Part shown: positions 4,602 through 17,774 of the stretch, one piece after another
How positions within the stretch are numbered: the first letter of the stretch is position 1
Layout: each line of letters starts with the position of its first letter
Assembly (NCBI GenBank): GCA_964579985.1
Contig: CAZOIN010000074.1
Span: 1 to 34,196 of the forward strand
Length of the DNA stretch: 34,196 nucleotides
Reading direction: 5' to 3'
DNA from: an uncultured Candidatus Saccharibacteria bacterium
GTDB taxonomy: Bacteria > Patescibacteriota > Minisyncoccia > Phycocordibacterales > UBA10002
Program-made: the position numbers and the translations under genes
The notes under the pieces: model-generated
The model's input: the letters and a program-made list of their open reading frames with translations, nothing else
What the model was told of the DNA's origin: nothing
Database searches by the model: none

Positions 4602-5846
4602 ATGTCAAGAAAGCGAATTTATCTAGATTGCGCCGCGACGACCCCGCTCGACCCGCGGGTGGGGAAAGCGATGCAGCCGTTTTTTGGAAGTCCACCATCC
4701 GCCAGCTGGCGGAGCGGATTCGGCAACCCGAGCTCGATTCACGCGGAAGGGGTCGCGGCGAAAAAAACGCTTGATGCCGCGCGTACCTCTGTCGCACGGG
4801 CGCTTGAAGCTCATGCAGGTGAGATCGTGTTTACGAGCGGTGGCACCGAGGCGAACAATTTAGCGATATTCGGGTTGATTGCTGCCGCCACCAACCACCA
4901 ACCACCAACCACCAACAATCGAAAACCTCCCCATGTCGTGACGACCAATATTGAGCATGCGTCGGTGCTTGAACCGCTCAAAGCATTGGAGCGGCAGAAC
5001 AAGATCGAGGTGACGTACGTGCCGGTTGAGCAAAACGGAATCGTGAAGCCCGAAAAAATAGTTACTGCTATCCGTCCAAACACGGTTTTGGTTTCTGTTA
5101 TGTACGCGAACAATGAGATTGGGACAATTCAACCCATTCGCAAGATTGGACAGTTGCTTGGGGAGAATTCACTAAACGCTAAACGCTATCCGCTGGCTGG
5201 AGGACTAAACGCTATGAAAAATCGGCTTCCTGTTTTCCACTCCGATGCCTGCCAAGCCCCCCTCTATTTAAATTGTCTCGTGAATGCGCTCGGAGTCGAT
5301 CTTTTCTCGCTTGACGCGCACAAGATCTACGGGCCGAAAGGAGTCGGCGCGCTGTATGTACGAAGAGGTACGCCGCTTTCGCCGGTGCTCATCGGGGGAG
5401 GTCAAGAACAGGGCTTGCGCTCCACCACTGAAAACGTAGCAGGCATCGTCGGTTTTGCCGAAGCGCTTCGAATTGCGGGCGCAGAACGGGAAAAAGAATC
5501 AATTCGCGTGACCAAACTCCGCGACTACCTCTATTCCACCATTCGCGCGAATAATGGAATAGACGGTGTCATTATAAATGGTGATGTGAAGGAACGGCTG
5601 CCGAACAATCTGAATATCTCGCTTCCGGGAGTTGATACCGAATTCCTGACGCTCAAGCTTGATGCCGAAGGGGTCGCGGTTTCGACGAAAAGTTCATGCT
5701 TGAAGGATGAAAAAGTTTCGTATGTAGTTGCGGCGCTGGGGGGCGGGAACAAACGGCCTGAATCAACACTTCGGTTCACACTTGGCAGAGGAACCACGAA
5801 AAAAGACATAGATATTGCTGCGAATATCCTGAAAAAACTCCTCTAG
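4602..5846 (+). CDS. cysteine desulfurase (class V aminotransferase, NifS/IscS-like)
   Basis: Motifs IYLDCAATTPLDPRV, GGTEANNLA, the PLP-lysine motif SLDAHKIYGPKGVGALY, and the active-site Cys loop STKSSC. Start taken at ATG 4602 (MSRKRIYLD...), 5 nt after TATACT 4591..4596. The track ORF begins at 4542. Confidence 0.88.
   Translation: MSRKRIYLDCAATTPLDPRVGKAMQPFFGSPPSASWRSGFGNPSSIHAEGVAAKKTLDAARTSVARALEAHAGEIVFTSGGTEANNLAIFGLIAAATNHQPPTTNNRKPPHVVTTNIEHASVLEPLKALERQNKIEVTYVPVEQNGIVKPEKIVTAIRPNTVLVSVMYANNEIGTIQPIRKIGQLLGENSLNAKRYPLAGGLNAMKNRLPVFHSDACQAPLYLNCLVNALGVDLFSLDAHKIYGPKGVGALYVRRGTPLSPVLIGGGQEQGLRSTTENVAGIVGFAEALRIAGAEREKESIRVTKLRDYLYSTIRANNGIDGVIINGDVKERLPNNLNISLPGVDTEFLTLKLDAEGVAVSTKSSCLKDEKVSYVVAALGGGNKRPESTLRFTLGRGTTKKDIDIAANILKKLL
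4698..4713. repeat. 16-bp perfect palindrome TCCGCCAGCTGGCGGA (copy 1, inside the cysteine desulfurase gene)
   Basis: Self-complementary over 16 bp. The 17-mer ATCCGCCAGCTGGCGGA is identical to 17874..17890. Confidence 0.9.
4888..4915 (+). repeat. tandem heptamer CCACCAA x4 inside a coding sequence
   Basis: Four exact consecutive copies, translated as part of ATNHQPPTTNN. Confidence 0.95.
5172..5215 (+). repeat. CTAAACGCT word cluster flanking a degenerate copy of the palindrome, in frame in the cysteine desulfurase gene
   Basis: CTAAACGCT occurs at 5172, 5179 and 5205. The 11-mer CTAAACGCTAT (5179..5189 and 5205..5215) brackets ccgctggctggagga. The stretch 5187..5205 matches the palindrome region at 17873..17891 in 16 of 19 positions. 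Confidence 0.85.
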
Positions 5847-5892: not shown

Positions 5893-6792
5893 GTGGAATC
5901 TCTTAACAAACAACAACTCATCCTTCTCGCCCTCCTCGTCTCATTCGTGACCTCTATCGCTACCGGCATTGTCACCGTGTCACTCATGGATCAAGCACCT
6001 CCGGGAGTTACGCAGACGATCAATCGCGTGGTTGAGAAGACGATTGAGCGCATCGTGACCGAGCCTGCAAATCAGGCAGCGGGGGTTGTAACCAAAGAAA
6101 CAGTCGTTGTAAAAGCCGATGACCTCGTCATTGAGGCTATCGAAAAAAATGTAGGAAACGTGGTCCGTATCCGCGAAGTAACTGGAGAGGGACATTCGAG
6201 CTTCGCGGGTCTGGGGCTCGTGATTTCACAGAACGGTCTCCTTGCGGCTGATCTTAGCGTCGCGTATCGAAAGGTCGACGATTTAGGTAACGCGATCGCC
6301 GAAAGTTATCAGGGAGTATTTTCGGACGGACGTGTCTTTCCTTTGAACCTCGTCTTTTCGGATCAAGGCGCCGGGCTGATCTTTTTCCAGGTCCTGCTTC
6401 AGGATAAAGAGAAGGGTGTGTATCGCTTCCTGACTCCTCGGTTTGGCCAAAGCGAGCTTAAGCTCGGTCAGGCGGTGGTGGCGCTTAGCGGCGACGATAC
6501 CAACTCGGTATCAACCGGTATCATTTCCAATCTAGTCCAAAAGGCGATTCAAAAGCCCGCTGATGTCTCGACGACAACGCCGCAAGTAGGCAAGGAGCTG
6601 GTCGTGATACAGACGGATATCCATGCCACAGAGCTTGTGTCCGGCTCAATTCTACTCAACCTACAAGGTGAAGTTATTGGGCTAAACGCGAGATCGTTGA
6701 GCAGCAACCGGAACACGTTTTTGCCCATACAGAAGGTGCTCGAAGTCTCGACCAAAATCCCCGCTACAGCGTCAAACCAGACTTTTAATTAG
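5893..6792 (+). CDS. membrane-anchored trypsin-like (S1C/HtrA-like) protease homolog, probably inactive, no PDZ domain
   Basis: N-terminal TM helix LILLALLVSFVTSIATGIVTV. The HtrA-like blocks GLGLVISQNGLLAADLSV and VIQTDIHATELVSGSILLNLQGEVIGLNA are present, but the His and Asp positions are substituted. GTG start follows GGAG at 5887..5890. Confidence 0.7.
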   Translation: MESLNKQQLILLALLVSFVTSIATGIVTVSLMDQAPPGVTQTINRVVEKTIERIVTEPANQAAGVVTKETVVVKADDLVIEAIEKNVGNVVRIREVTGEGHSSFAGLGLVISQNGLLAADLSVAYRKVDDLGNAIAESYQGVFSDGRVFPLNLVFSDQGAGLIFFQVLLQDKEKGVYRFLTPRFGQSELKLGQAVVALSGDDTNSVSTGIISNLVQKAIQKPADVSTTTPQVGKELVVIQTDIHATELVSGSILLNLQGEVIGLNARSLSSNRNTFLPIQKVLEVSTKIPATASNQTFN

Positions 6793-6928: not shown

Positions 6929-9634
6929 GTGCCACCATTTCATCAATTTACGACCAAAGCAAAAGAAGCGATCAGGAGAGCCCATGAGCTTGCGATCGAA
7001 CGCGGGCAGAATCATGTGAATCCGCTTCATCTTCTTGCCGCACTGATGCTACAGGAAGAAAGTATCGTCATATCCATTCTTGAAAAACTCGAGGTAGATA
7101 CGGTGCTTCTTACCGACTCTGTCCTCGAATCTATCGAAGGAACCGAGGGCACTTCAGTTCTTTCGCCGTCCTATCAGATATACCTTACGCCCGAGCTGGC
7201 TCAGATACTGGAAAACGGAAGCCGTGTAGCCGCGACGCTGAAAGACGAATTCGTCTCGACCGAGCATCTCTTTATCGCGATGTTCGATGTCTCGGGAAGC
7301 GCGCGCGAACTGCTCGCGCGGTTCAAGCTTGAGAAAGCCGCCGTCCTGCGCGTGCTCGAGGAACTTCGCCATAGTCGCGTTACCGATGTCGGCACGTCTC
7401 CGAAGAAATTCCGGTTTCTTGCCAAGTTTACCCGAAACCTTACTTCGCTCGCGCGCGAGAATAAACTCGATCCGGTTATCGGACGAGACAATGAGATTTC
7501 CCGTATCATTCAAATTCTTTCGCGCCGCACCAAAAATAACCCAATCCTCATCGGCGAGGCCGGTGTCGGCAAGACCGCTATCGTCGAGGGTCTCGCGCTG
7601 CGCATGGCGCAGGGAGACATTCCTGAATCGCTCAAGGACAAGGAGCTGGTCTCTCTCGACCTAGGGCTTCTCATTGCCGGCACCAAGTACCGCGGTGAAT
7701 TCGAGGAGCGTCTCAAGAACATCATGAAAGAGATCGAGAAGTCCGATGGTAAAATTATCCTTTTTATTGATGAGATTCATACGATCGTCGGAGCCGGTGC
7801 CGCCGAAGGGGCCATGGACGCGTCCAATATGCTGAAGCCCGCTCTCTCGCGCGGAGAGCTTCGCGCTATCGGAGCCACGACGCTCAAAGAATACCAAAAG
7901 CATATTGAAAAAGATCCCGCGCTTACCCGCCGTTTCCAGCCAGTGTTCGTACCCGAGCCGTCGGTAGAGGACGCGATTACAATCCTTCGTGGACTGAAGG
8001 AAAAGTATGAGCTGTATCACGGCGTGCACATCACCGACGAATCTATCATCGCGGCGGTTAATCTTTCCGCGCGATACATCACGGACCGCTTTTTGCCTGA
8101 CAAGGCCGTCGACCTTATCGACGAGGCCGCTTCTTCGCTCAAGATATCCCTTGAGAATATGCCACCAGTGCTTGAGGAAACCCGTCGCAAAGTCATGCGG
8201 CTTGAGATCGAACGGGAAGCGCTTAAGAAAGAGGCTGATACCGGGAAGCAGGCAAGGGCGCGCATCAAGGAGATCGAGGCCGAGATCGCCGATCTCAAAG
8301 AAAAGACGGAGGAGATAGAGCTGAAGTGGAGGAATGAAAAAGAGACGCTCTCCGAGATCAAGAAATTCAAGAAAGAGCTTGAAATGCTCCGCATTGAAGC
8401 TGAGCAAGCGGAAGCGCGAGCCGACCTTTCCAAAGCTGCGGAGATTCGGTATGGCACAATTCCGGCCATTCAAAAGGAACTTGAGAATAACGCGAGGCGC
8501 CTGAAAAAATTGCAAAGCTCGCGGCGCATTCTCAAGGAGGAAATCCTTTCAAATGATATCGCCGAGATTGTCGCCAAATGGACGGGTATTCCGGTCATGC
8601 GCATGCTTGAGGAAGAAACATCCAAGCTCGTACGCATCGAAGATGAGCTTCGAACTCGTATTATCGGCCAAGACGATCCAATCAAGCGCGTGTCCGATGC
8701 CATCAAGCGAAGCCGTGCCGGCATTTCCGATCCGAATCGCCCTATCGGTTCGTTCCTCTTCCTGGGCCCCACCGGCGTTGGCAAGACCGAGCTCACCAAG
8801 GCGCTCGCTGAATTCATGTTCAACGACGAGCGGGCCCTCATCCGCGTGGATATGTCCGAGTTTATGGAGAAACACTCGGTCTCGAAACTCATCGGTGCTC
8901 CTCCTGGGTATGTCGGCTATGAAGAAGGAGGGACGCTCACCGAAACGATCCGTCACCGTCCGTACGCGGTGGTGCTCTTCGACGAAATCGAAAAGGCCCA
9001 CCCAGAAGTGTTCAATATCTTGCTTCAGATACTTGATGACGGCCGTCTTACCGATGCCAAGGGGCGCGGGGTGAACTTTAGGAATACCATCATCATCCTT
9101 ACTTCAAACATTGGCGGGCAGTTCATCGATAAGATGCAGCGGGTCGGTTTTTCAGTGTCGGGAAAAGCGGGGGATTATGACGATGCCAAGAATAAAATCA
9201 CCGCCGCGCTTAAGGATCATTTTCGTCCAGAATTTCTAAATCGCCTCGACGATATCATCATCTTCGACGTGCTTAGTCCAGAAGCGCTTGAAAGAATCGT
9301 CGGGATTCAGATTAAGCAGGTGGAGGAACGCCTCAAGGCAAAGGAGATCACTATCGTCGTTACTCCTGAGGTCTATAGTTTCCTTTCCAAGGAAGGGTAC
9401 AATCCTCAGTATGGCGCGAGACCGCTGAAGAGGCTCATCCAGAATAAAATTTTAAACCCTATTGCCTCGCTCATCATTGGAAAAGGGATCGGAAAGGGCG
9501 GGAGCGTATCGCTCACTATGAAGAACGGCGATATTCATTTTGAGGTGCGAAAGGGGAGGAACGGGAAAAATGGAAACGGCAACTCTATCCGAAGTGACAT
9601 AATGACGAAGGTAGCGGTGGAAGCAAAAACATAG
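6929..9634 (+). CDS. clpB: ATP-dependent chaperone ClpB
   Basis: Clp N-domain, then D1 with Walker [10 protein letters not shown] and Walker [10 protein letters not shown] long coiled-coil M-domain follows (about residues 400-530). D2 has [19 protein letters not shown] and pore loop GAPPGYVGY, with no IGF/LGF loop. The GTG start is the only start codon after the in-frame TAA at 6917..6919. Confidence 0.93.
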
Positions 9635-11865: not shown

Positions 11866-11872
11866 GTTATTG

Positions 11873-11944
11873 CGGGCCCGCCGCGAGTCGAACGCGGAAC
11901 CTCGGTTTTGGAGACCGATGTTTTACCATTGAAACTACAGGCCC
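11873..11944 (-). tRNA. tRNA-Trp (anticodon CCA)
   Basis: Acceptor GGGCCTG/CGGGCCC; D stem GTTT/AAAC; anticodon stem TCGGT/ACCGA with loop CTCCAAA. T arm CCGCG-TTCGACT-CGCGG; discriminator G. Confidence 0.9.
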
Positions 11945-11967
11945 AACTAAGAAATAGTAACACGAAA

Positions 11968-12948
11968 TCAAGTCGAGAGAAACCCTCGCGCCGCTTTCTC
12001 GATGGCCCGTTTTTCGTTGGCTTTAAACCATGCAATACCTTTTTCTCGCTTAAACCAGGTCATCTGTCGTTTGGCATACTGCCAGATTTCCGTTTGCAGT
12101 TTCCCAATCATTTCTTCCTTTGACAGAAGTCCGCGCAGGTATCGGGAAATATATCGATACTCCAGTCCGAGCTCCTCCATTCGCTTCCAGGATAAGCCTC
12201 TCCTGTGTAGCCTTCGAACCTCCTCAATCATCTGTTCTCCAATTCGCGCGAATAGGCGAATAGCTATTTTTCTTTTCACTTCATCAGGAGAGAGGGTAAG
12301 ACCGATAAAAAGCACGTCAATATCTTCTCGCGGAGCATTTGGGTATGGCGGGATTTTTCCGAGTGCCACGGCTATCTCGATTGCCCGTATTAATCGGCGA
12401 GGATTTAGTGCATCAATAGTTTTGGCGCGCCTTGCATCGAGCTTTTTGAGCATGGAAAAAAGCTCCACTTTCGTTTTCTTTTCGAGCCTCTTTCGCAAAT
12501 TGTGATTCGGCGGGACTTCGGGGAATACCACATCGTTCACGATAGCCTGAATATACAGACCGGTTCCCCCAACAATGATGGGAAGTTTACCTCTTGAGAA
12601 AATCTGCTCAAGCTTTACCCTTGCCAGCTTTTGATATTTGGCAACACTAAACTGCTTTTTCGGGTCAGCGACATCAAGCAAATGGTGGGAGACACCCTGC
12701 ATTTCTTTCTTAATGATCTTGCCCGTACCAATATCAAGGTTTGTGTACACCTGCCTTGAGTCGGCGGAAATGACTTCGCCGTGGTATCTTTTGGCAAGCG
12801 AAACCGCGAGCGAGCTTTTGCCCACAGCCGTCGGCCCAACGATCACCAGCATTTTTCGCGGGAATCCCCCTACGGTCCGCGCATCTATTCCATTAGTCGC
12901 GCGAATAATGGAATAGACTGTTCTGCCCTTTAGGGGTGTTTTTAACAT
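11968..12948 (-). CDS. miaA: tRNA dimethylallyltransferase
   Basis: P-loop GPTAVGKSSLA, plus ISADSRQVYTNLDIGTGK and IVGGTGLYI. An alternative start at ATG 12852 (MLVIVGPT...) would give the more usual N-terminus. Confidence 0.9.
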   Translation of the reverse strand: MLKTPLKGRTVYSIIRATNGIDARTVGGFPRKMLVIVGPTAVGKSSLAVSLAKRYHGEVISADSRQVYTNLDIGTGKIIKKEMQGVSHHLLDVADPKKQFSVAKYQKLARVKLEQIFSRGKLPIIVGGTGLYIQAIVNDVVFPEVPPNHNLRKRLEKKTKVELFSMLKKLDARRAKTIDALNPRRLIRAIEIAVALGKIPPYPNAPREDIDVLFIGLTLSPDEVKRKIAIRLFARIGEQMIEEVRRLHRRGLSWKRMEELGLEYRYISRYLRGLLSKEEMIGKLQTEIWQYAKRQMTWFKREKGIAWFKANEKRAIEKAARGFLST

Positions 12949-13000: not shown

Positions 13001-13336
13001 ATGATTATTCGAATTATAGAGAAGCCGATTACCCGAGCAGAGGCAAAAGAGATCGCCGAAGAATTTTATATTGATATGGTAAAAGGTGTGGTTGACATAG
13101 AACAGGAAATTATCGCGCTTGGCGGTGAATGGCACATAGACGCCAATCATCTGATTCTTGGTAGTGGGTCGCGACAAGATATGGTATGGGGTTTTAACTT
13201 CTACCCGGATGAAAATCGCATCGAGTATACCTCTCTCATTAACATCCGACCTGCCCAGAATAACCGCAAGATCGAAGTCCAGGATGAAAAGCTGAAAAGA
13301 AGAATGGAAGAGGTAATACGAAAACTCATTATATGA
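13001..13336 (+). CDS. DUF5674-like protein
   Basis: 111 aa. The core DMVKGVVDIEQEIIALGGEWHIDANHLILGSGSRQDMVWGFNFYPDE...INIRPAQNNR matches my recollection of DUF5674 proteins. TACTAT at 12988..12993 lies 7 nt before the ATG. Confidence 0.65.
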   Translation: MIIRIIEKPITRAEAKEIAEEFYIDMVKGVVDIEQEIIALGGEWHIDANHLILGSGSRQDMVWGFNFYPDENRIEYTSLINIRPAQNNRKIEVQDEKLKRRMEEVIRKLII

Positions 13337-13632
13337 AAGCACGAACTCCTGCATTTCTCATGGCCAATTTAGGAAGCGATATGGCACAGCTTTTCTCACA
13401 CCTCGAGAGAGGGGAGAAACAGTTGGCACTATCCGCTTCGGGACGAGCGCAATCGATCATTGCGGAGTTACTTGTTCATAACGAACTTACGGAAAGGACA
13501 GGGGAGGTCGAGATACTGCGCGCTATTATTGTTGACGCGCTTTCGGAAAGACGCCTTCTCGAGGTGAATAAAAACGAGCTCGGGGATTACTTCTTGCCAT
13601 TTTCAATGCGCGTTTTACAGCACACGTTATAA
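13333..13632 (+). CDS. hypothetical protein (99 aa), translationally coupled to the DUF5674-like gene
   Basis: ATGA overlap at 13333..13336. Helical-looking sequence; no family recognised. Confidence 0.55.
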   Translation: MKARTPAFLMANLGSDMAQLFSHLERGEKQLALSASGRAQSIIAELLVHNELTERTGEVEILRAIIVDALSERRLLEVNKNELGDYFLPFSMRVLQHTL

Positions 13633-13640
13633 GTTACGTC

Positions 13641-13676
13641 TATTCTGGTATTCTCAAGAATATCAGAATAGATAAT
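13641..13676 (+). promoter_or_regulatory. 13-bp inverted repeat (TATTCTGGTATTC-N4-GAATATCAGAATA) abutting a GATAAT -10 box
   Basis: The arms are 13641..13653 and 13658..13670, with one mismatch. GATAAT at 13671..13676 lies 7 nt upstream of ATG 13684. No T-run follows, so an operator fits better than a terminator. Confidence 0.45.
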
Positions 13677-13683
13677 AGAGAGT

Positions 13684-16125
13684 ATGTTCACGAAGATTTT
13701 TCAAAAGATAGATAAAAACGACCCGAACAGTGCGGGCGGAAAGGGTGCGTCACTTGGAGAAATGACGAATGCAGGCATTCCCGTACCACCGGGGTTTGTA
13801 TTGCTTGCGGATGCGTTTGAGCGGTTTCTTGAAGAGACCGATCTTAACGTGGAAATTGACGCGATACTTCATACGGTTAATCATCGTGAAATACACACTG
13901 TTGAAGGAGCGTCGGAGAAGATAGAGGCACTCATTCTTGAAGCAAAAATGCCCAAAGATATTGCAGACGAGATCAAAGCCCAGTTCAAGAAACTTAATGC
14001 AAAATTTGTTGCGGTGCGTTCTTCCGCCACAGCCGAGGATGGCGCGACTGCCGCATGGGCGGGACAGCTTGATAGTTTTCTTAATACCACTGAAAAAGAA
14101 CTCTTACACAATGTGCAAAGATGCTGGGCATCCCTTTTAACCCCCCGCGCTATTTTTTATCGCTTCGAAAAGGGTTTACACAAAACAAAAATCTCCGTGG
14201 CGGTAGTGGTGCAGAAAATGGTTGAGTCGGAGGTTTCTGGCATTGCCTTTTCGGTGCATCCAGTCACCGAGGATAGGAACCAACTGATTATTGAGGCCGG
14301 TTTTGGCCTTGGCGAAGCAATTGTTTCTGGCCAGATTACGCCTGACAGCTACGTAGTCGAGAAAACTCCTCGTCGGATTATTGACAAAAACATCTCGGAG
14401 CAAGAACGGGGCCTCTATAGAGCTTCACTTTACTTGGGTAAAGTGGAGCAGAAGGGAGGAAATGAGTGGAAGGGTATTTCGAAAGAGCACGGCGGTACAC
14501 AGAAATTATCCGATGAGCAAATTCTTGAGCTTTCTGAACTGGTTCTCCATATCGAAAATCATTACGGCTTCCCCTCCGATATCGAATGGGCGTTCGCCAA
14601 AGGCAAGTTTTATATCCTCCAAAGCCGTCCGATTACCACTCTTTCCTCAGAGAAGCCGTCCCTCATCGGGTCCAGCAATGAGCGGACTGAAGAATGGATG
14701 GCGTGGATTTGGCCGGGATTGTATTGGTATCAAGTAATACACCCAATGTTTGCGTGGCAACAGGATTTTAAAGAATATGGGCTCTCTATAGCCAAACTGG
14801 TCGTAACGTACTCAAAGGGGACGTCGGCTTATTACTTTGTCAGAAGAGAGTATGAGGAAGAAGGAAGAAAGTTATTTGAAAAGGTTAAAAAAGATTCCAA
14901 CCTCTTAGCATCAGTTTTAGAAAAAATAAATACAGCGGCAGAAGAAATTTTTGAGCTCGGTGAAAAATGGAAAGGTACTGATTTTTCAAGTCTCTCTGAT
15001 AAGGAACTCATTAGACACCATAGATTGCTGTTTAGCTTCGACGAGCCTTTATGGAGAAACGGACAAATTCCCAACCTTTTGGAATTAGATAACAATTATT
15101 TATCAGAACACGTAAAATCAATACTAGAAGAAAAATATGGCATAGGAAGAGCTCAAGAATTATTTACTATTCTTACAACATCGACTTTTGAGTCAAAGAG
15201 TGAAAAAGAGCAATTTGACTTCCTAACACTGCTTAAACAGTATAAGAATCTAGATTCAGTTGCCAAGCAAAAAATACAGGCGCATTGGCATATGTATATG
15301 TGGATGACTTTTGGATGGGCTGGCCCAGCTCTTTCGTACAGATATTTTGAAGAGATGTTTAAAAATGCAATCAAGACAAGATCCCATTTTGTTAAAGAAA
15401 TTGAAGAAAAAATAGAAATCAAAAGAAAACTATTACAGCAACAAAAAGAGATTCTTAATGAAATCTTATCTAGGGATCGACTATTTGTAGTCTTACTTCG
15501 AAAGATACTCGAAGCTAAAGCGCGCAGAGTCGATGCTCATTCATTGACATATTTCTTGGCAGAAAAGATGATGAAAGAAATCGGCAAACGAGTAGGTTTA
15601 TCGATCAATCAAATGAGAATAGTCATCCCCTCTGAAGTACCGAAATTATTTAAAATTGTAAACGTAGAAAAAATAAATGACGAGTATGAAAGAGTACTTA
15701 TATGGTTTGAAAACGGGATTTCAAAAAAATATACAGGTACATCTGCGGAGAAAAAGCTAAAATACGTCTTTGATCGATTACCGGAAACTCTCGACACTGA
15801 AGAATTAAAAGGCCAGTTGGCTTATCCGGGTAAAGTAAAAGGAAATATAAAGGTAATATTGGATATAAAGGATGCGAAAAAATTTCAAGAGGGAGAAATA
15901 TTAGTTACCCGAATGACTGATCCGAGTTATGTACCCCTAATGAAGGTCGCAAGGGCTATCGTTACAGATATTGGCGGTATAACTTGTCATGCCGCCATCG
16001 TTGCCCGCGAGATGAGAAAACCCTGCATCATCGGCACGAAAATCGCCACCAAAGTTCTGAAGGACGGGGATATGGTGGAGGTGGATGCAAATGAGGGGGT
16101 GGTGAGGATTTTGAGAAAAGCATAA
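13684..16125 (+). CDS. PEP-utilizing-enzyme family phosphotransferase (ATP-grasp PPDK_N domain, helical middle, C-terminal swivel-His domain; no PEP/pyruvate TIM barrel)
   Basis: N-terminal motifs are GGKGASLGEMTNAGIPVPPGFV, VAVRSSATAEDG and DIEWAFAKGKFYILQSRPIT. The C-terminus carries VTRMTDPSYVPLM...IVTDIGGITCHAAIVAREMRKPCIIGT, and the gene ends about 35 residues later. Length and domain order resemble rifampicin phosphotransferase and YvkC-type enzymes. Confidence 0.85.
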   Translation: MFTKIFQKIDKNDPNSAGGKGASLGEMTNAGIPVPPGFVLLADAFERFLEETDLNVEIDAILHTVNHREIHTVEGASEKIEALILEAKMPKDIADEIKAQFKKLNAKFVAVRSSATAEDGATAAWAGQLDSFLNTTEKELLHNVQRCWASLLTPRAIFYRFEKGLHKTKISVAVVVQKMVESEVSGIAFSVHPVTEDRNQLIIEAGFGLGEAIVSGQITPDSYVVEKTPRRIIDKNISEQERGLYRASLYLGKVEQKGGNEWKGISKEHGGTQKLSDEQILELSELVLHIENHYGFPSDIEWAFAKGKFYILQSRPITTLSSEKPSLIGSSNERTEEWMAWIWPGLYWYQVIHPMFAWQQDFKEYGLSIAKLVVTYSKGTSAYYFVRREYEEEGRKLFEKVKKDSNLLASVLEKINTAAEEIFELGEKWKGTDFSSLSDKELIRHHRLLFSFDEPLWRNGQIPNLLELDNNYLSEHVKSILEEKYGIGRAQELFTILTTSTFESKSEKEQFDFLTLLKQYKNLDSVAKQKIQAHWHMYMWMTFGWAGPALSYRYFEEMFKNAIKTRSHFVKEIEEKIEIKRKLLQQQKEILNEILSRDRLFVVLLRKILEAKARRVDAHSLTYFLAEKMMKEIGKRVGLSINQMRIVIPSEVPKLFKIVNVEKINDEYERVLIWFENGISKKYTGTSAEKKLKYVFDRLPETLDTEELKGQLAYPGKVKGNIKVILDIKDAKKFQEGEILVTRMTDPSYVPLMKVARAIVTDIGGITCHAAIVAREMRKPCIIGTKIATKVLKDGDMVEVDANEGVVRILRKA

Positions 16126-16128
16126 AAC

Positions 16129-16389
16129 ATGATACCATTTCGGAGTATGAAAGTTAGTAAGAACAATTATCATTACAACATCATCGTTACCCCCGAAAAG
16201 GAAGGTGGCTTTACCGTTGTGGTACCTGCTTTACCTGGTTGTGTTACGTATGGGAAAACGCTTACGGAAGCGAAACGAATGGCAGGGGATGCTATTTACG
16301 GGTACATTCAAAGTTTGAAGAAACATGGCGAACAAATTCCATCCGACGAAGACACGTACGTTTCGTCTCTCGATGTGACCTATGCCTAA
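16129..16389 (+). CDS. hicB: HicB family antitoxin
   Basis: Motif EGGFTVVVPALPGCVTYGKTLTEAKRMAGDAIYGYIQSLKKHGEQIP. The start may instead be ATG 16147. The gene overlaps hicA by 8 nt. Confidence 0.85.
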   Translation: MIPFRSMKVSKNNYHYNIIVTPEKEGGFTVVVPALPGCVTYGKTLTEAKRMAGDAIYGYIQSLKKHGEQIPSDEDTYVSSLDVTYA

Positions 16390-16606
16390 ACTGCCAGTGA
16401 TATCGGCAAAGAAATTAGTTCGTTTTCTTGAAGCGAATAGTTTTGTACTTGATCATACGAGTGGAAGTCACTTCATTTTTTATCACCACGCGAGCCGGAG
16501 GCGGGCCGTTGTGCCGAAACATACTCGTGATCTCCCAAAGGGGACCCTACTTTCGATTCTTCGGGAGGCTGGATTTAGCCGCGCTGACCTTCTTCGTTTC
16601 TTTTGA
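16382..16606 (+). CDS. hicA: HicA family mRNA interferase toxin
   Basis: 74 aa with KLVRFLEANSFVLDHTSGSHFIFYH...VVPKHTRDLPKGTLLSILREAG, a typical HicA/YcfA pattern. Confidence 0.85.
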   Translation: MPKLPVISAKKLVRFLEANSFVLDHTSGSHFIFYHHASRRRAVVPKHTRDLPKGTLLSILREAGFSRADLLRFF

Positions 16607-16620
16607 ACACTAATAGTGGT

Positions 16621-16692
16621 GGCTTGGCACAAAAATTGCTAAAGGACGGTGATATGGTGGAGGTGGATGCGAATAAGGGTATAATTACCTAA
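16621..16692 (+). pseudogene. orphan 3'-terminal remnant of a PEP-utilizing-enzyme gene
   Basis: In frame it reads GLAQKLLKDGDMVEVDANKGIIT-stop, against ATKVLKDGDMVEVDANEGVVRILRKA-stop at the end of 13684..16125. Nucleotides 16642..16680 match 16060..16098 at 35 of 39 positions. Confidence 0.75.
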
Positions 16693-16719
16693 AATAATTA
16701 GTCGCTAAACCCAAAATAT

Positions 16720-17535
16720 ATGTCAGAACCAGAGTTTTTCTTTACACGACATAGCAAGTCAAGTTATGCAGAGTATGAAAAAACAATGAAAGGAGGGAAC
16801 CCCCAAGCTCCTTTTGAACATACTCAGCAGGAAGAATCGGATTTGACTGAAGCCGGAATTAAAATGGCAGTTGAAAAAGCGAAAGAATTTTTTGGTCGCC
16901 TGAACCCGAAAACCGACCAATTATTTTTTGTTACCAGCAACGAAGCTCGCGCAATAGGAACCGCGAACATATATAGGCGGGAGGCTAAATCAAGAGGCTT
17001 TGAAATCATCCGGCCGGAACATAGTAGAAGCCCTCTTGCGGAAAAAGAGGGTGAGGGGGAACTGAGAATTCTAGAGACACTATCACTTAATTCTGAAAAC
17101 ACCCTACGGTTTCAGGTTTTCGGTTCATCGGAACCGAAGGTAAATTGGGGAAATGTAGACGATGCATTTAAACAGAAGTGGCGGGAAGCGAGAAAAATTA
17201 TTGACGGGAACAACAAAGGTTCATGGGGAGCGAATTTCGCCGCTCACTCGGAGGAAATAAGTAAGATTTTTCCTGGTATTGAAACTGCAGAGGATTTTTA
17301 TCGTACGAAATTTAGAAATATGCTACGTCTTATCAAGTGGGCTGATAAAAAGGCAATACCCAAAGAGGACAAACAGATCAAGATTTTAGGATTCGGACAC
17401 GAAGATTACATGGTTAAATTTTTAGAGGATGAGTTTAAGCAAGAAGGGATACTAAATTGTGAAACGGTTCAGTTCTCACTGGATGAACTAAAGAATATAC
17501 ATGCGACCGCACGTAACAAAACAGAGCAACTGTAA
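16720..17535 (+). CDS. histidine phosphatase superfamily protein (phosphoglycerate-mutase-like branch)
   Basis: FFFTRHSKS is a variant of the RHG motif. Also LTEAGIKMA, TSNEARAIGTA, and the second catalytic His in ILGFGHEDYM. Confidence 0.65.
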   Translation: MSEPEFFFTRHSKSSYAEYEKTMKGGNPQAPFEHTQQEESDLTEAGIKMAVEKAKEFFGRLNPKTDQLFFVTSNEARAIGTANIYRREAKSRGFEIIRPEHSRSPLAEKEGEGELRILETLSLNSENTLRFQVFGSSEPKVNWGNVDDAFKQKWREARKIIDGNNKGSWGANFAAHSEEISKIFPGIETAEDFYRTKFRNMLRLIKWADKKAIPKEDKQIKILGFGHEDYMVKFLEDEFKQEGILNCETVQFSLDELKNIHATARNKTEQL

Positions 17536-17692
17536 TGGAGAATTATACCGAAGGCGGGACCTCAACATTACATGTTCAGTACCCCAATTGGTTTTTCTGT
17601 TCGTGCGGATACCCTAGAAAAAGCTCAATCGGGCTTCACGTCTCACACGGAAGCATCTCACGCTTCCTCTCCCCATCTCGCTTCGCTCAATG

Positions 17693-17774
17693 CCGGGGGA
17701 GAGACTCGAACTCTCAAACCTTTCGGTGCACGATTTTGAGTCGTGTGCGGTTACCAATTTCGCCACCCCGGCGT
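17693..17774 (-). tRNA. tRNA-Leu (anticodon CAA)
   Basis: Acceptor GCCGGGG/CCCCGGC; anticodon stem CACGA/TCGTG with loop CTCAAAA. Long variable arm and T arm GAGAG-TTCGAGT-CTCTC. Confidence 0.9.

What the first reader, a model, noticed from the sequence alone, without database searches (positions are those of the whole stretch)
16060..16692. hicBA cassette bracketed by a duplicated 3' end of the host gene
Seen in sequence:
- Nucleotides 16060..16098 (the end of the phosphotransferase gene) and 16642..16680 match at 35 of 39 positions.
- Both copies encode KDGDMVEVDAN in frame, and each is followed by its own stop codon.
- The roughly 540 bp between them contain only hicB and hicA.

Inference: the toxin-antitoxin pair entered as a compact cassette that carried, or regenerated, the 3' end of its target gene. 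Integrative elements that insert into gene 3' ends behave this way. Alternatively, recombination with a diverged allele produced it. No integrase or transposase is visible, so the mobilisation mechanism is open.
Basis: partly seen in the sequence, partly recalled or inferred. Interest (0 to 1): 0.6.

Follow-up and report, generated by a model that had tools for sequence, protein, structure and literature searches.

The report
Toxin-antitoxin cassette flanked by duplicated gene end
A small hicBA toxin-antitoxin pair in an ultra-small (Patescibacteria) bacterium sits between a kinase gene and a decayed copy of that gene's last ~100 bases, which is best read as an integrase-free "insertion with long target duplication", a known pattern here seen with a new cargo and a recurrent hotspot.

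Summary
The repeat is real.

- **Upstream copy:** the end of an 813-aa RPH-type dikinase (ATP-grasp, variable middle, swivel-His).
- **Downstream copy:** a decayed stand-alone tail with an 11-nt deletion and an early stop. It ends 27 nt before the 271-aa partner gene, where an intact dikinase gene ends in relatives without hicBA.
- **Empty site:** a syntenic congener has the gene followed directly by tRNA-Leu.
- **Second locus:** the same hicBA plus remnant lies at a non-syntenic dikinase locus in another congener.
- **Other cassettes:** four other toxin-antitoxin pairs in relatives (ParD/YoeB, DUF6922/AbiEii, a third HicBA, a PIN pair) are each followed by a tail starting at the same nucleotide (TGCATCATCGGCAC), 5-24 nt after the toxin stop.
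- **Unrelated targets:** hicBA relatives elsewhere are bracketed by 202- and 124-nt duplications of unrelated genes.

Best reading (about 0.6): integrase-free insertion with long target duplication, as described for restriction-modification units. Rivals are a paralogous module deleted down to its tail (about 0.2) and the scar of a site-specific element (about 0.1). Interest is moderate.

The parts
13684..16125 (+). 813-aa RPH/PpsA-type dikinase: ATP-grasp PPDK_N (aa 15-325), variable middle domain, C-terminal swivel phosphohistidine domain (aa 734-805). This is the target gene.
   Evidence: Pfam PF01326 E 6e-97 and PF00391 E 1e-26. Nearest solved structures are PEP synthase 8a8e and rifampin phosphotransferase 5fbs/5hv1.
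16024..16125 (+). Upstream, functional tail copy: swivel-domain codons C81 to the stop (CIIGTKIATKVLKDGDMVEVDANEGVVRILRKA*). The repeat proper is 16051-16097.
16129..16389 (+). hicB antitoxin. It is short, 86 aa from the first ATG or 80 aa from the ATG at 16147 that aligns with the G006 start. Only the N-terminal HicB fold is present, with no DNA-binding domain.
   Evidence: PF15919 E 4.6e-11, profile positions 1-58 of 123. PDB HicB 6g1c/6u0i. 68% identical to G006 hicB.
16382..16606 (+). hicA toxin (74 aa, GSH motif). It overlaps hicB by 8 nt.
   Evidence: PF07927 E 6.3e-16. PDB 1whz, 6g26, 4c26. 65-72% identical relatives, mostly in Acidobacteriota.
16618..16692 (+). Downstream tail remnant, the displaced or duplicated gene end. 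It starts 11 nt after the hicA stop. It is decayed: an 11-nt deletion relative to the gene shifts the frame of its first part, and it ends early as ..KGIIT*. The repeat proper is 16633-16679.
16720..17535 (+). 271-aa partner gene, with weak similarity to histidine phosphatases. In relatives its homologue directly follows an intact dikinase gene or module.
   Evidence: No Pfam or PDB hit for this protein. Homologues match His_Phos_1 at E 2e-4 to 0.09. Adjacency seen in G199 and others.
17691..17772 (-). tRNA-Leu(CAA), the conserved right border of the variable locus. The left border is miaA/tRNA-Trp at 11872-12948.
   Evidence: ARAGORN. Synteny with G015, G011 and G014:C20.
16111..16138 (+). 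Promoter-like site (TTGAGA, 16 nt, TACCAT with an upstream TG) spanning the gene's stop codon and the hicB start region. This is a consensus match only.
   Evidence: 3 sites found against 2.9 expected, so weak

Best explanation
hicBA entered between an RPH-type dikinase gene and its downstream partner gene. The insertion came with a direct duplication of the gene's last ~105 bp, from swivel-domain codon C81 to just past the stop.

**What each part does now**
- The upstream copy keeps the dikinase ORF whole.
- The downstream copy is a non-coding scar that still abuts the 271-aa gene and is decaying.

**How it most likely happened**
- The most likely route needs no dedicated integrase. It is the 'insertion with long target duplication' pattern known for restriction-modification units.
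- A repeat-flanked cassette of this kind can then pass to any genome that holds a dikinase tail. The route would be DNA uptake plus RecA recombination, with the two tail copies acting as homology arms.
- It could be lost again by recombination between the copies.
- Gene conversion or this recombination keeps the 20-30-nt core of the two copies nearly identical.

**Role of hicBA**
- hicBA itself is an ordinary addiction or defence module: HicA is an RNase toxin and HicB a short antitoxin. Such a module resists deletion, which explains why it is what survives at the site.

**Shown:** the repeat, the gene identities, the empty sites, the recurrence with other toxin-antitoxin pairs, and the shared junction.

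**Inferred:** the direction of the event (insertion rather than deletion), the recombination route, and the gene conversion.
For: 1. **Position of the remnant.** It ends 27 nt before the 271-aa gene. In G199 an intact 804-aa dikinase ends 10 nt before the 41%-identical homologue. The same pairing is seen in L263, L305, L306, L308 and L319.
2. **Empty syntenic site.** G015 has the order miaA, gene, 147 nt, tRNA-Leu, parB, relA, with no hicBA, remnant or 271-aa gene.
3. **Same cassette, different locus.**
   - G006 has gene, hicBA (68% aa identity), tail remnant.
   - The context there is livGF, the middle domain differs, and a different gene follows the remnant.
4. **Recurrence with four other toxin-antitoxin pairs.**
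   - The pairs are ParD-like/YoeB and DUF6922/AbiEii in G014, HicBA type 3 in L201, and a 73-aa ORF plus PIN in L164.
   - Each is followed 5-24 nt after the toxin stop by a tail that begins at TGCATCATCGGCAC.
5. **Flanking copies are unusually alike.**
   - Core identity is 28/30 in G000, 27/30 in G006 and 29/30 in L201.
   - The mean is 22.5/30 for 214 adjacent intact modules, and only 10% of those reach 27.
   - Each genome's two copies share synonymous choices that the other genome lacks.
6. **Same hicBA family bracketed by duplications of unrelated sequence.**
   - L114 (Acidobacteriota): 202 nt at 98%, made of the last 128 nt of a 767-aa gene plus 74 nt.
   - L126: 124 nt at 95% at the lysS 5' region.
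7. **Machinery and absence of a local recombinase.**
   - No recombinase lies at the locus.
   - ComEC and RecA are present in the genome.
   - The pattern meets the criteria of Furuta et al. 2010 (PMC2853133).
Against: - Insertion is therefore inferred from species 20-60% diverged.
- The syntenic empty site (G015) also lacks the 271-aa gene. The gene-then-phosphatase-like 'empty' sites are at other genomic positions or on short contigs.
- Tail-only remnants also occur without toxin-antitoxin pairs and with other left borders (aa 45, 54, 57, 65, 88, 89, 91, 94, 101). This shows that plain deletion also makes such fragments.
- Toxin-antitoxin pairs also sit behind tails with no duplication: G011, G006 hicBA2 and L278.
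- A target-independent mechanism does not by itself explain why five cassettes share one junction nucleotide.
Confidence: 0.6

Rival explanations
1. Decayed paralogue. The ancestor had a dikinase gene, then hicBA, then a second Mid+swivel module (or a whole second gene), then the 271-aa gene. A deletion removed the second module except its last ~100 bp. hicBA was simply sitting between two modules, and the repeat is ordinary paralogy.
For: - Tandem arrays of 350-500-aa Mid+swivel modules behind one ATP-grasp gene are the rule in this order, with up to about 24 in one genome.
- Small gene pairs do sit next to or between intact modules, as in L278.
- Internal-deletion scars exist: G014:C20 (N-terminal ~28 aa fused to the tail), G014:C12 (N80 fused to the swivel domain) and L172.
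- Longer remnants exist: L166 aa 45-112, L263 aa 54-113, L201 rem1 aa 65-110.
- The gene family is patchy and eroding in this genus (6 of 21 genomes).
Against: - Five independent remnants next to toxin-antitoxin pairs start at the same nucleotide, with the toxin stop 5-37 nt upstream. Random deletions would not do that, and nothing selects for sparing the toxin's last codons.
- Flanking copies are more alike than neighbouring modules usually are: 3 of 5 pairs fall in the top 10%.
- No tail-only remnant was found among about 120 intact modules of large arrays. Only 2 of 44 genomes had tail motifs less than 1 kb apart.
- The same hicBA family carries long flanking duplications where no paralogue family exists.
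Confidence: 0.22
2. Scar of site-specific integration. Elements using a tyrosine or serine recombinase, encoded in trans or since lost, integrate at an attB inside the swivel-domain tail and carry a replacement tail in attP. Reductive deletion left only the addictive toxin-antitoxin genes and the att repeats, with tandem accretion in G014.
For: - The left border of the downstream copy is shared and nucleotide-precise across five cassettes and several lineages.
- G014:C12 has the stacked layout tail, TA, tail, TA, tail.
- The genome encodes tyrosine recombinases elsewhere, on C122 and C75.
- Regenerating a gene's 3' end is typical of such elements (established knowledge of tRNA- and gene-end-targeting islands).
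Against: - No recombinase gene lies in or next to any of the six loci examined.
- Close relatives of the same hicBA are bracketed by duplications of unrelated sequences, so there is no common att.
- The tail DNA has no fold better than shuffled sequence, with z from -1.5 to +1.6.
- The two copies differ both upstream and downstream of the core. This fits homology-driven exchange rather than a fixed crossover point.
Confidence: 0.13
3. Chance similarity or a mis-assembly of a metagenome bin.
For: The genome is a 131-contig MAG.
Against: - The repeat is 41/47 with a 20-nt exact core, in frame with a conserved motif.
- The same layout occurs in an independently assembled genome.
- The reversed-pattern control gave almost no hits.
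Confidence: 0.01

Closest known systems
Insertion with long target duplication (ILTD) of restriction-modification gene units (Nobusato et al. 2000, as cited and extended by Furuta, Abe and Kobayashi 2010, PMC2853133)
   Same: - A small addiction-type gene unit with no mobility gene.
- It is flanked by direct repeats longer than 30 bp that are single-copy at the empty site, often overlapping a neighbouring gene's 3' end.
- It is seen mostly in naturally competent bacteria. This genome has ComEC and RecA.
   Different: - The cargo is a type II toxin-antitoxin pair, not a restriction-modification system.
- The host is a Patescibacterium.
- The same target, a conserved multi-copy swivel-domain tail, is used repeatedly by different cassettes with one shared junction. 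This was not described for restriction-modification units.
- The repeats here are old and diverged (87%).
Genomic islands and cis-mobilisable elements at gene or tRNA 3' ends, with tandem accretion (own knowledge of the literature; not re-read here)
   Same: - The gene end is regenerated and the displaced end is left as attR.
- Several elements are stacked at one site, separated by att-like repeats (G014:C12).
   Different: - No integrase at any locus.
- Elements of only 0.5-1 kb.
- No common att when the same hicBA family sits at other genes.
Orphan toxin-immunity arrays of CDI/Rhs loci (own knowledge)
   Same: - Displaced gene-end fragments all start at one conserved coding motif.
- Each fragment is followed by small protective genes, and the newest unit lies next to the main gene.
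   Different: - The duplicated tail is a housekeeping-type swivel-domain end, not a variable toxin domain.
- The cassettes are self-contained toxin-antitoxin pairs unrelated to the host gene's function.
HicAB type II toxin-antitoxin systems (solved: 6g26/6g1c Burkholderia HicAB, 4c26, 1whz)
   Same: - HicA fold with the GSH motif and the HicB N-terminal fold.
- Overlapping genes in one small operon.
   Different: - HicB here is only 80-86 aa and lacks the C-terminal DNA-binding domain.
- Activity is untested.
Homology-facilitated illegitimate recombination during natural transformation (own knowledge)
   Same: One homologous anchor (the conserved swivel domain) plus a non-homologous join could give the same product.
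   Different: It predicts scattered joins, not one shared junction nucleotide.

Membership tests
HicAB type II toxin-antitoxin | Toxin with the HicA domain | tested here: met
   PF07927 E 6.3e-16, above cut-off. PDB HicA hits. The GSH motif is visible in the translation.
HicAB type II toxin-antitoxin | Adjacent antitoxin with the HicB N-terminal fold | tested here: met
   PF15919 E 4.6e-11, above cut-off, profile positions 1-58 of 123 only. PDB HicB hits. 8-nt gene overlap.
HicAB type II toxin-antitoxin | Toxicity of HicA neutralised by HicB | not testable with these tools
   Needs expression in a laboratory strain.
Insertion with long target duplication (criteria of PMC2853133) | Inserted unit under 20 kb that holds the addiction genes and no mobility gene | tested here: met
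   The 0.5-kb insert holds only hicB and hicA. No PF00589 hit in the window's contig.
Insertion with long target duplication (criteria of PMC2853133) | Flanking direct repeat longer than 30 bp | tested here: met
   47 nt at 87%, about 75 nt with one indel.
Insertion with long target duplication (criteria of PMC2853133) | A compared genome has the repeat once, with both flanks contiguous (empty site) | tested here: inconclusive
   G015 is syntenic and empty but also lacks the 271-aa gene. G199 and others show the gene-to-partner-gene junction but are distant.
Insertion with long target duplication (criteria of PMC2853133) | Both repeat copies align with the target sequence | tested here: met
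   Core identity to the G015 tail is 26/30 for the upstream copy and 27/30 for the downstream copy.
Site-specific integrative element at a gene 3' end | Recombinase gene inside or beside the element | tested here: not met
   None at this locus or at the five related loci. Recombinases occur only on other contigs.
Site-specific integrative element at a gene 3' end | Same att border in independent insertions | tested here: met
   Five downstream copies start at TGCATCATCGGCAC.
Site-specific integrative element at a gene 3' end | Excised circle or empty junction in the population | not testable with these tools
Integron gene cassette | Structured attC-like site at the cassette end and a neighbouring intI | tested here: not met
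   Tail DNA folds no better than shuffles. No integrase at the locus.
Diversity-generating retroelement (VR/TR pair) | Mismatches confined to adenines of the template repeat, plus a reverse transcriptase nearby | tested here: not met
   The four mismatches are G/T, A/G, G/A and G/T. No such ORF is among the neighbours.

The most novel reading that the evidence does not exclude
The swivel-domain tail is a dedicated cassette-capture site. An unknown sequence-specific nuclease or recombinase, or a property of the sequence TGCATCATCGGCAC itself, would let ultra-small bacteria stack toxin-antitoxin and other accessory cassettes behind dikinase genes. Each cassette would bring or regenerate a tail. 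In effect this would be an integron-like acquisition system without intI or attC. It would also explain how the large Mid+swivel module arrays grow.
Probability: 0.12. Interest if true: 0.7.

Novelty: new member of a known kind. Interest (0 to 1): 0.4.

Why it matters
- **How accessory genes arrive without mobility genes.** The case shows how small addiction or defence cassettes can be added next to a working gene without breaking it and without any mobility gene. It does so in organisms (Patescibacteria/CPR) that have tiny genomes and few recognisable mobile elements.
- **Wider scope for a known pattern.** It extends a pattern described for restriction-modification units to toxin-antitoxin pairs.
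- **A recurrent hotspot.** It identifies the conserved end of the RPH-like dikinase family as a hotspot where five different cassettes share one junction.
- **Use in annotation.** Short 'orphan' gene ends after toxin-antitoxin pairs are scars, not genes.
- **What it is not.** It is not a new kind of element, and the hicBA pair itself is ordinary.

Tried and rejected
- **Diversity-generating retroelement (VR/TR):** rejected. The mismatches are not adenine-specific and there is no reverse transcriptase.
- **Integron-like attC:** rejected. The TGCATC...GATGCA pairing appears in minimum-energy folds, but the energies are no better than shuffles, and L201 lacks the pairing.
- **One nuclease site explaining both the C81 and the 'VDA' borders:** dropped. 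The break positions are not symmetric once written out.
- **Remnants as small functional ORFs:** not supported. L164 has GGAATATG plus an in-frame 33-aa ORF, but other remnants lack a consistent start and the G000 copy is frameshifted.
- **Exact-protein look-up of HicA:** not on record.
- **Close relatives of this gene's middle domain:**
  - None by peptide words.
  - Only two by alignment.
- **Tails near the 80 closest hicA loci:** only the G006 locus has a tail remnant. L125 has a module 1.8 kb away but no remnant.
- **G011 as an empty site:** wrong. It carries a different hicBA (type 2) between the gene and tRNA-Leu.
- **Literature search for this dikinase family or its arrays in CPR:** found nothing relevant.
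Full report
**1. The observation**

- Window 16060-16098 and 16642-16680 match at 35 of 39 positions.
- The repeat finder extends this to 47 nt, 16051-16097 against 16633-16679. Identity is 87%, with a 20-nt exact core GATATGGTGGAGGTGGATGC.
- The upstream copy is the end of the 813-aa ORF 13684-16125 (...LKDGDMVEVDANEGVVRILRKA*).
- The downstream copy reads ..LLKDGDMVEVDANKGIIT*, with a stop at 16690-16692.
- Between them lie only hicB (16129-16389) and hicA (16382-16606). Both score above Pfam's cut-offs and both have solved relatives.
- The genome is an 847-kb, 131-contig Patescibacteria-type assembly with one copy each of the gene and of hicBA.
- A degenerate KDGDxVEVDA pattern found two copies less than 1 kb apart in only 2 of 401 genomes of the order, this one and a congener. 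The reversed control was almost empty.

**2. The duplicated gene**

- The 813-aa protein has a PPDK_N ATP-grasp domain, a ~380-aa middle domain without a Pfam match, and a C-terminal PEP-utiliser swivel domain.
- Its nearest solved relatives are PEP synthases and the rifampin phosphotransferase of Listeria (5fbs, 5hv1).
- In this order the family is hugely expanded. One ATP-grasp gene is followed by tandem 350-500-aa 'middle + swivel' modules, a dozen or more in a row in some 0.7-Mb genomes.
- Earlier notes of this scan describe these split dikinase arrays. I saw them independently.
- The repeated piece is the last third of the swivel domain. I number it here from the start of a 113-aa query, so C81 is the Cys of C-I-I-G-T.

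**3. The downstream copy is a scar in a telling position**

- Allowing an 11-nt deletion, its homology to the gene runs back to about 16618, 11 nt after the hicA stop.
- Its first part is therefore out of frame, and its end is cut short.
- It ends 27 nt before the 271-aa ORF.
- That ORF has no Pfam or PDB match. Its homologues reach the histidine-phosphatase family only below threshold, so 'phosphatase' is a tentative name.
- It is rare, found in 4 of 401 genomes.
- Where it occurs it follows an intact dikinase gene or module directly.
  - In G199 an 804-aa gene stops 10 nt before the 41%-identical homologue.
  - The same holds in L263, L305, L306, L308 and L319.

**4. Synteny**

- G015 has the same neighbourhood: tRNA-Trp, miaA, gene, tRNA-Leu(CAA), parB, rel. 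Only 147 nt separate the gene and tRNA-Leu, with no hicBA, no remnant and no 271-aa gene.
- G011 has a different hicBA (type 2) in that gap, without a visible remnant.
- G014 has the gene collapsed to its first ~28 codons fused to a tail.
- The stretch between miaA and tRNA-Leu is thus a variable slot.
- In this window its GC content (36-47%) is below that of the flanking core genes (window 49%, parB 55%).

**5. The same cassette elsewhere**

- G006, a congener, has gene, hicB, hicA, tail remnant. HicA and HicB are each 68% identical, and the junction regions are alignable.
- Its surroundings differ.
  - livGF lies upstream, as in L240, where an intact array sits.
  - The middle domain is unrelated.
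  - An orphan 368-aa module plus a second hicBA follows the remnant.
- Within each genome the two tail copies share synonymous choices: GAT ATG GTG GAG in G000 and GAC TTG GTT GAA in G006.
  - Core identity is 28/30 and 27/30 within genomes.
  - It is 23-24/30 between genomes.
- The downstream copy of G000 is as close to the tails of the syntenic genes (27/30 to G015 and to G011) as to its own partner.
- So either the duplication arose separately in each locus from the local tail, or the copies are homogenised by gene conversion.

**6. Other cassettes, same bracket**

- In G014:C12 the layout is: a degenerate gene, a ParD-like/YoeB pair, a tail, a DUF6922/AbiEii pair, then a further partial tail.
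- In metagenome contig L201 a third HicBA type lies between two tail copies that are 51/55 identical from HDGD onwards.
- In L164 a 73-aa ORF plus a PIN toxin lie between two tail remnants just before a tRNA.
- At nucleotide level, the downstream copies in G006, G014 (twice), L201 and L164 all begin at TGCATCATCGGCAC, 5-37 nt after the toxin's stop. Unrelated sequence lies upstream.
- Three of the five flanking pairs are in the top 10% of core identity when compared with 214 pairs of adjacent intact modules (mean 22.5/30).

**7. The same hicBA family at unrelated targets**

- Of the 80 closest hicA loci (mostly Acidobacteriota, 65-72% identity), two more are bracketed by long direct repeats.
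  - L114: 202 nt at 98%, made of the last 128 nt of a 767-aa gene plus 74 nt.
  - L126: 124 nt at 95%, at the start of lysS.
- No paralogue family can explain those repeats.

**8. Mechanism**

- The pattern is a small addiction unit with no mobility gene, direct repeats longer than 30 bp that are single at the empty site, and frequent overlap with a gene's 3' end. This is 'insertion with long target duplication', described for restriction-modification units and mostly in competent species (PMC2853133). Notes of this scan pointed me to it.
- This genome has ComEC and RecA. Its tyrosine recombinases lie on other contigs only.
- I therefore favour an integrase-free insertion. It would be followed by spread among dikinase tails through ordinary recombination, with the two copies serving as arms, and by homogenisation of the core.
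- This is inference.

**9. What speaks against it**

- Deletion clearly also makes tail fragments.
  - Remnants with other borders (aa 45-101) occur with no toxin-antitoxin pair beside them.
  - Toxin-antitoxin pairs also sit behind tails without any duplication.
- A module array that lost its second module except the tail would give the same picture. I put this at about 0.2.
- The shared junction nucleotide would fit a site-specific enzyme (about 0.1). Against this, no recombinase is nearby, there is no structured site, and the family has no common att at other genes.

**10. Verdict**

- It is a new example, with a new cargo and a recurrent hotspot, of a known kind of event. Interest is moderate.

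Noticed in passing
L040-L046 (G223:C1 160-212 kb, G382:C13, G083:C1); window 13684-16125: RPH-like dikinase modules (middle domain + swivel-His, no ATP-grasp) form tandem arrays of a dozen or more ORFs behind one ATP-grasp gene in 0.7-1 Mb genomes. G223 has at least 24 tail motifs. Earlier notes of this scan already describe this.
   Followed up: partly
window 13001-13632; also L142 4138-4769, L043 18834-19468, L186 5562-6235: The overlapping DUF5674 + ~99-aa gene pair recurs beside dikinase genes or arrays in several genomes, so it probably belongs to that system.
   Followed up: no
L033 ~6165-6260 and L142 ~4985-5070 (G014); L278 ~9430-9504; L261 ~9560-9600: There is a second hotspot inside the tail, right after the codons V-D-A. 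G014 has a ~50-nt insert followed by a repeated '(V)DA..G.V..I*' end at two loci. L278 and L261 have short in-frame insertions there.
   Followed up: partly
L114 2313-3566: An Acidobacteriota hicBA has nested repeats. A 202-nt pair (98%) encloses a 95-nt pair (84%) that hugs the cassette, as if the cassette carried repeats from an earlier site into a new one.
   Followed up: partly
G000:C8:5248-7383: RecA matches in two pieces (profile positions 3-67 and 65-262), 1.35 kb apart, inside one 826-aa open frame. This looks like an intein-containing recA.
   Followed up: no
L254, L257, L286, L289, L295: ATP-grasp subunits about 70% identical to this one occur in bins labelled DPANN archaea (Woesearchaeota, Nanoarchaeota, Iainarchaeum). 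This suggests exchange of the dikinase system between ultra-small bacteria and archaea, or mislabelled bins.
   Followed up: no
L034 1949-3627 (G004): In the closest congener the dikinase is split into an ATP-grasp ORF (345 aa) and a middle+swivel ORF (541 aa). A 192-aa ORF on the opposite strand, with a PHG (histidine-phosphatase-like) start, lies between them.
   Followed up: no
window 13001-17535: The whole accessory block (DUF5674 pair, dikinase, hicBA, 271-aa gene) has 36-47% GC against 49% for the window and 55% for parB. The middle domain (36%) is 54% identical (middle + swivel) to an orphan module of a Taylorbacteria bin (L035). This suggests the block or its parts were acquired.
   Followed up: partly
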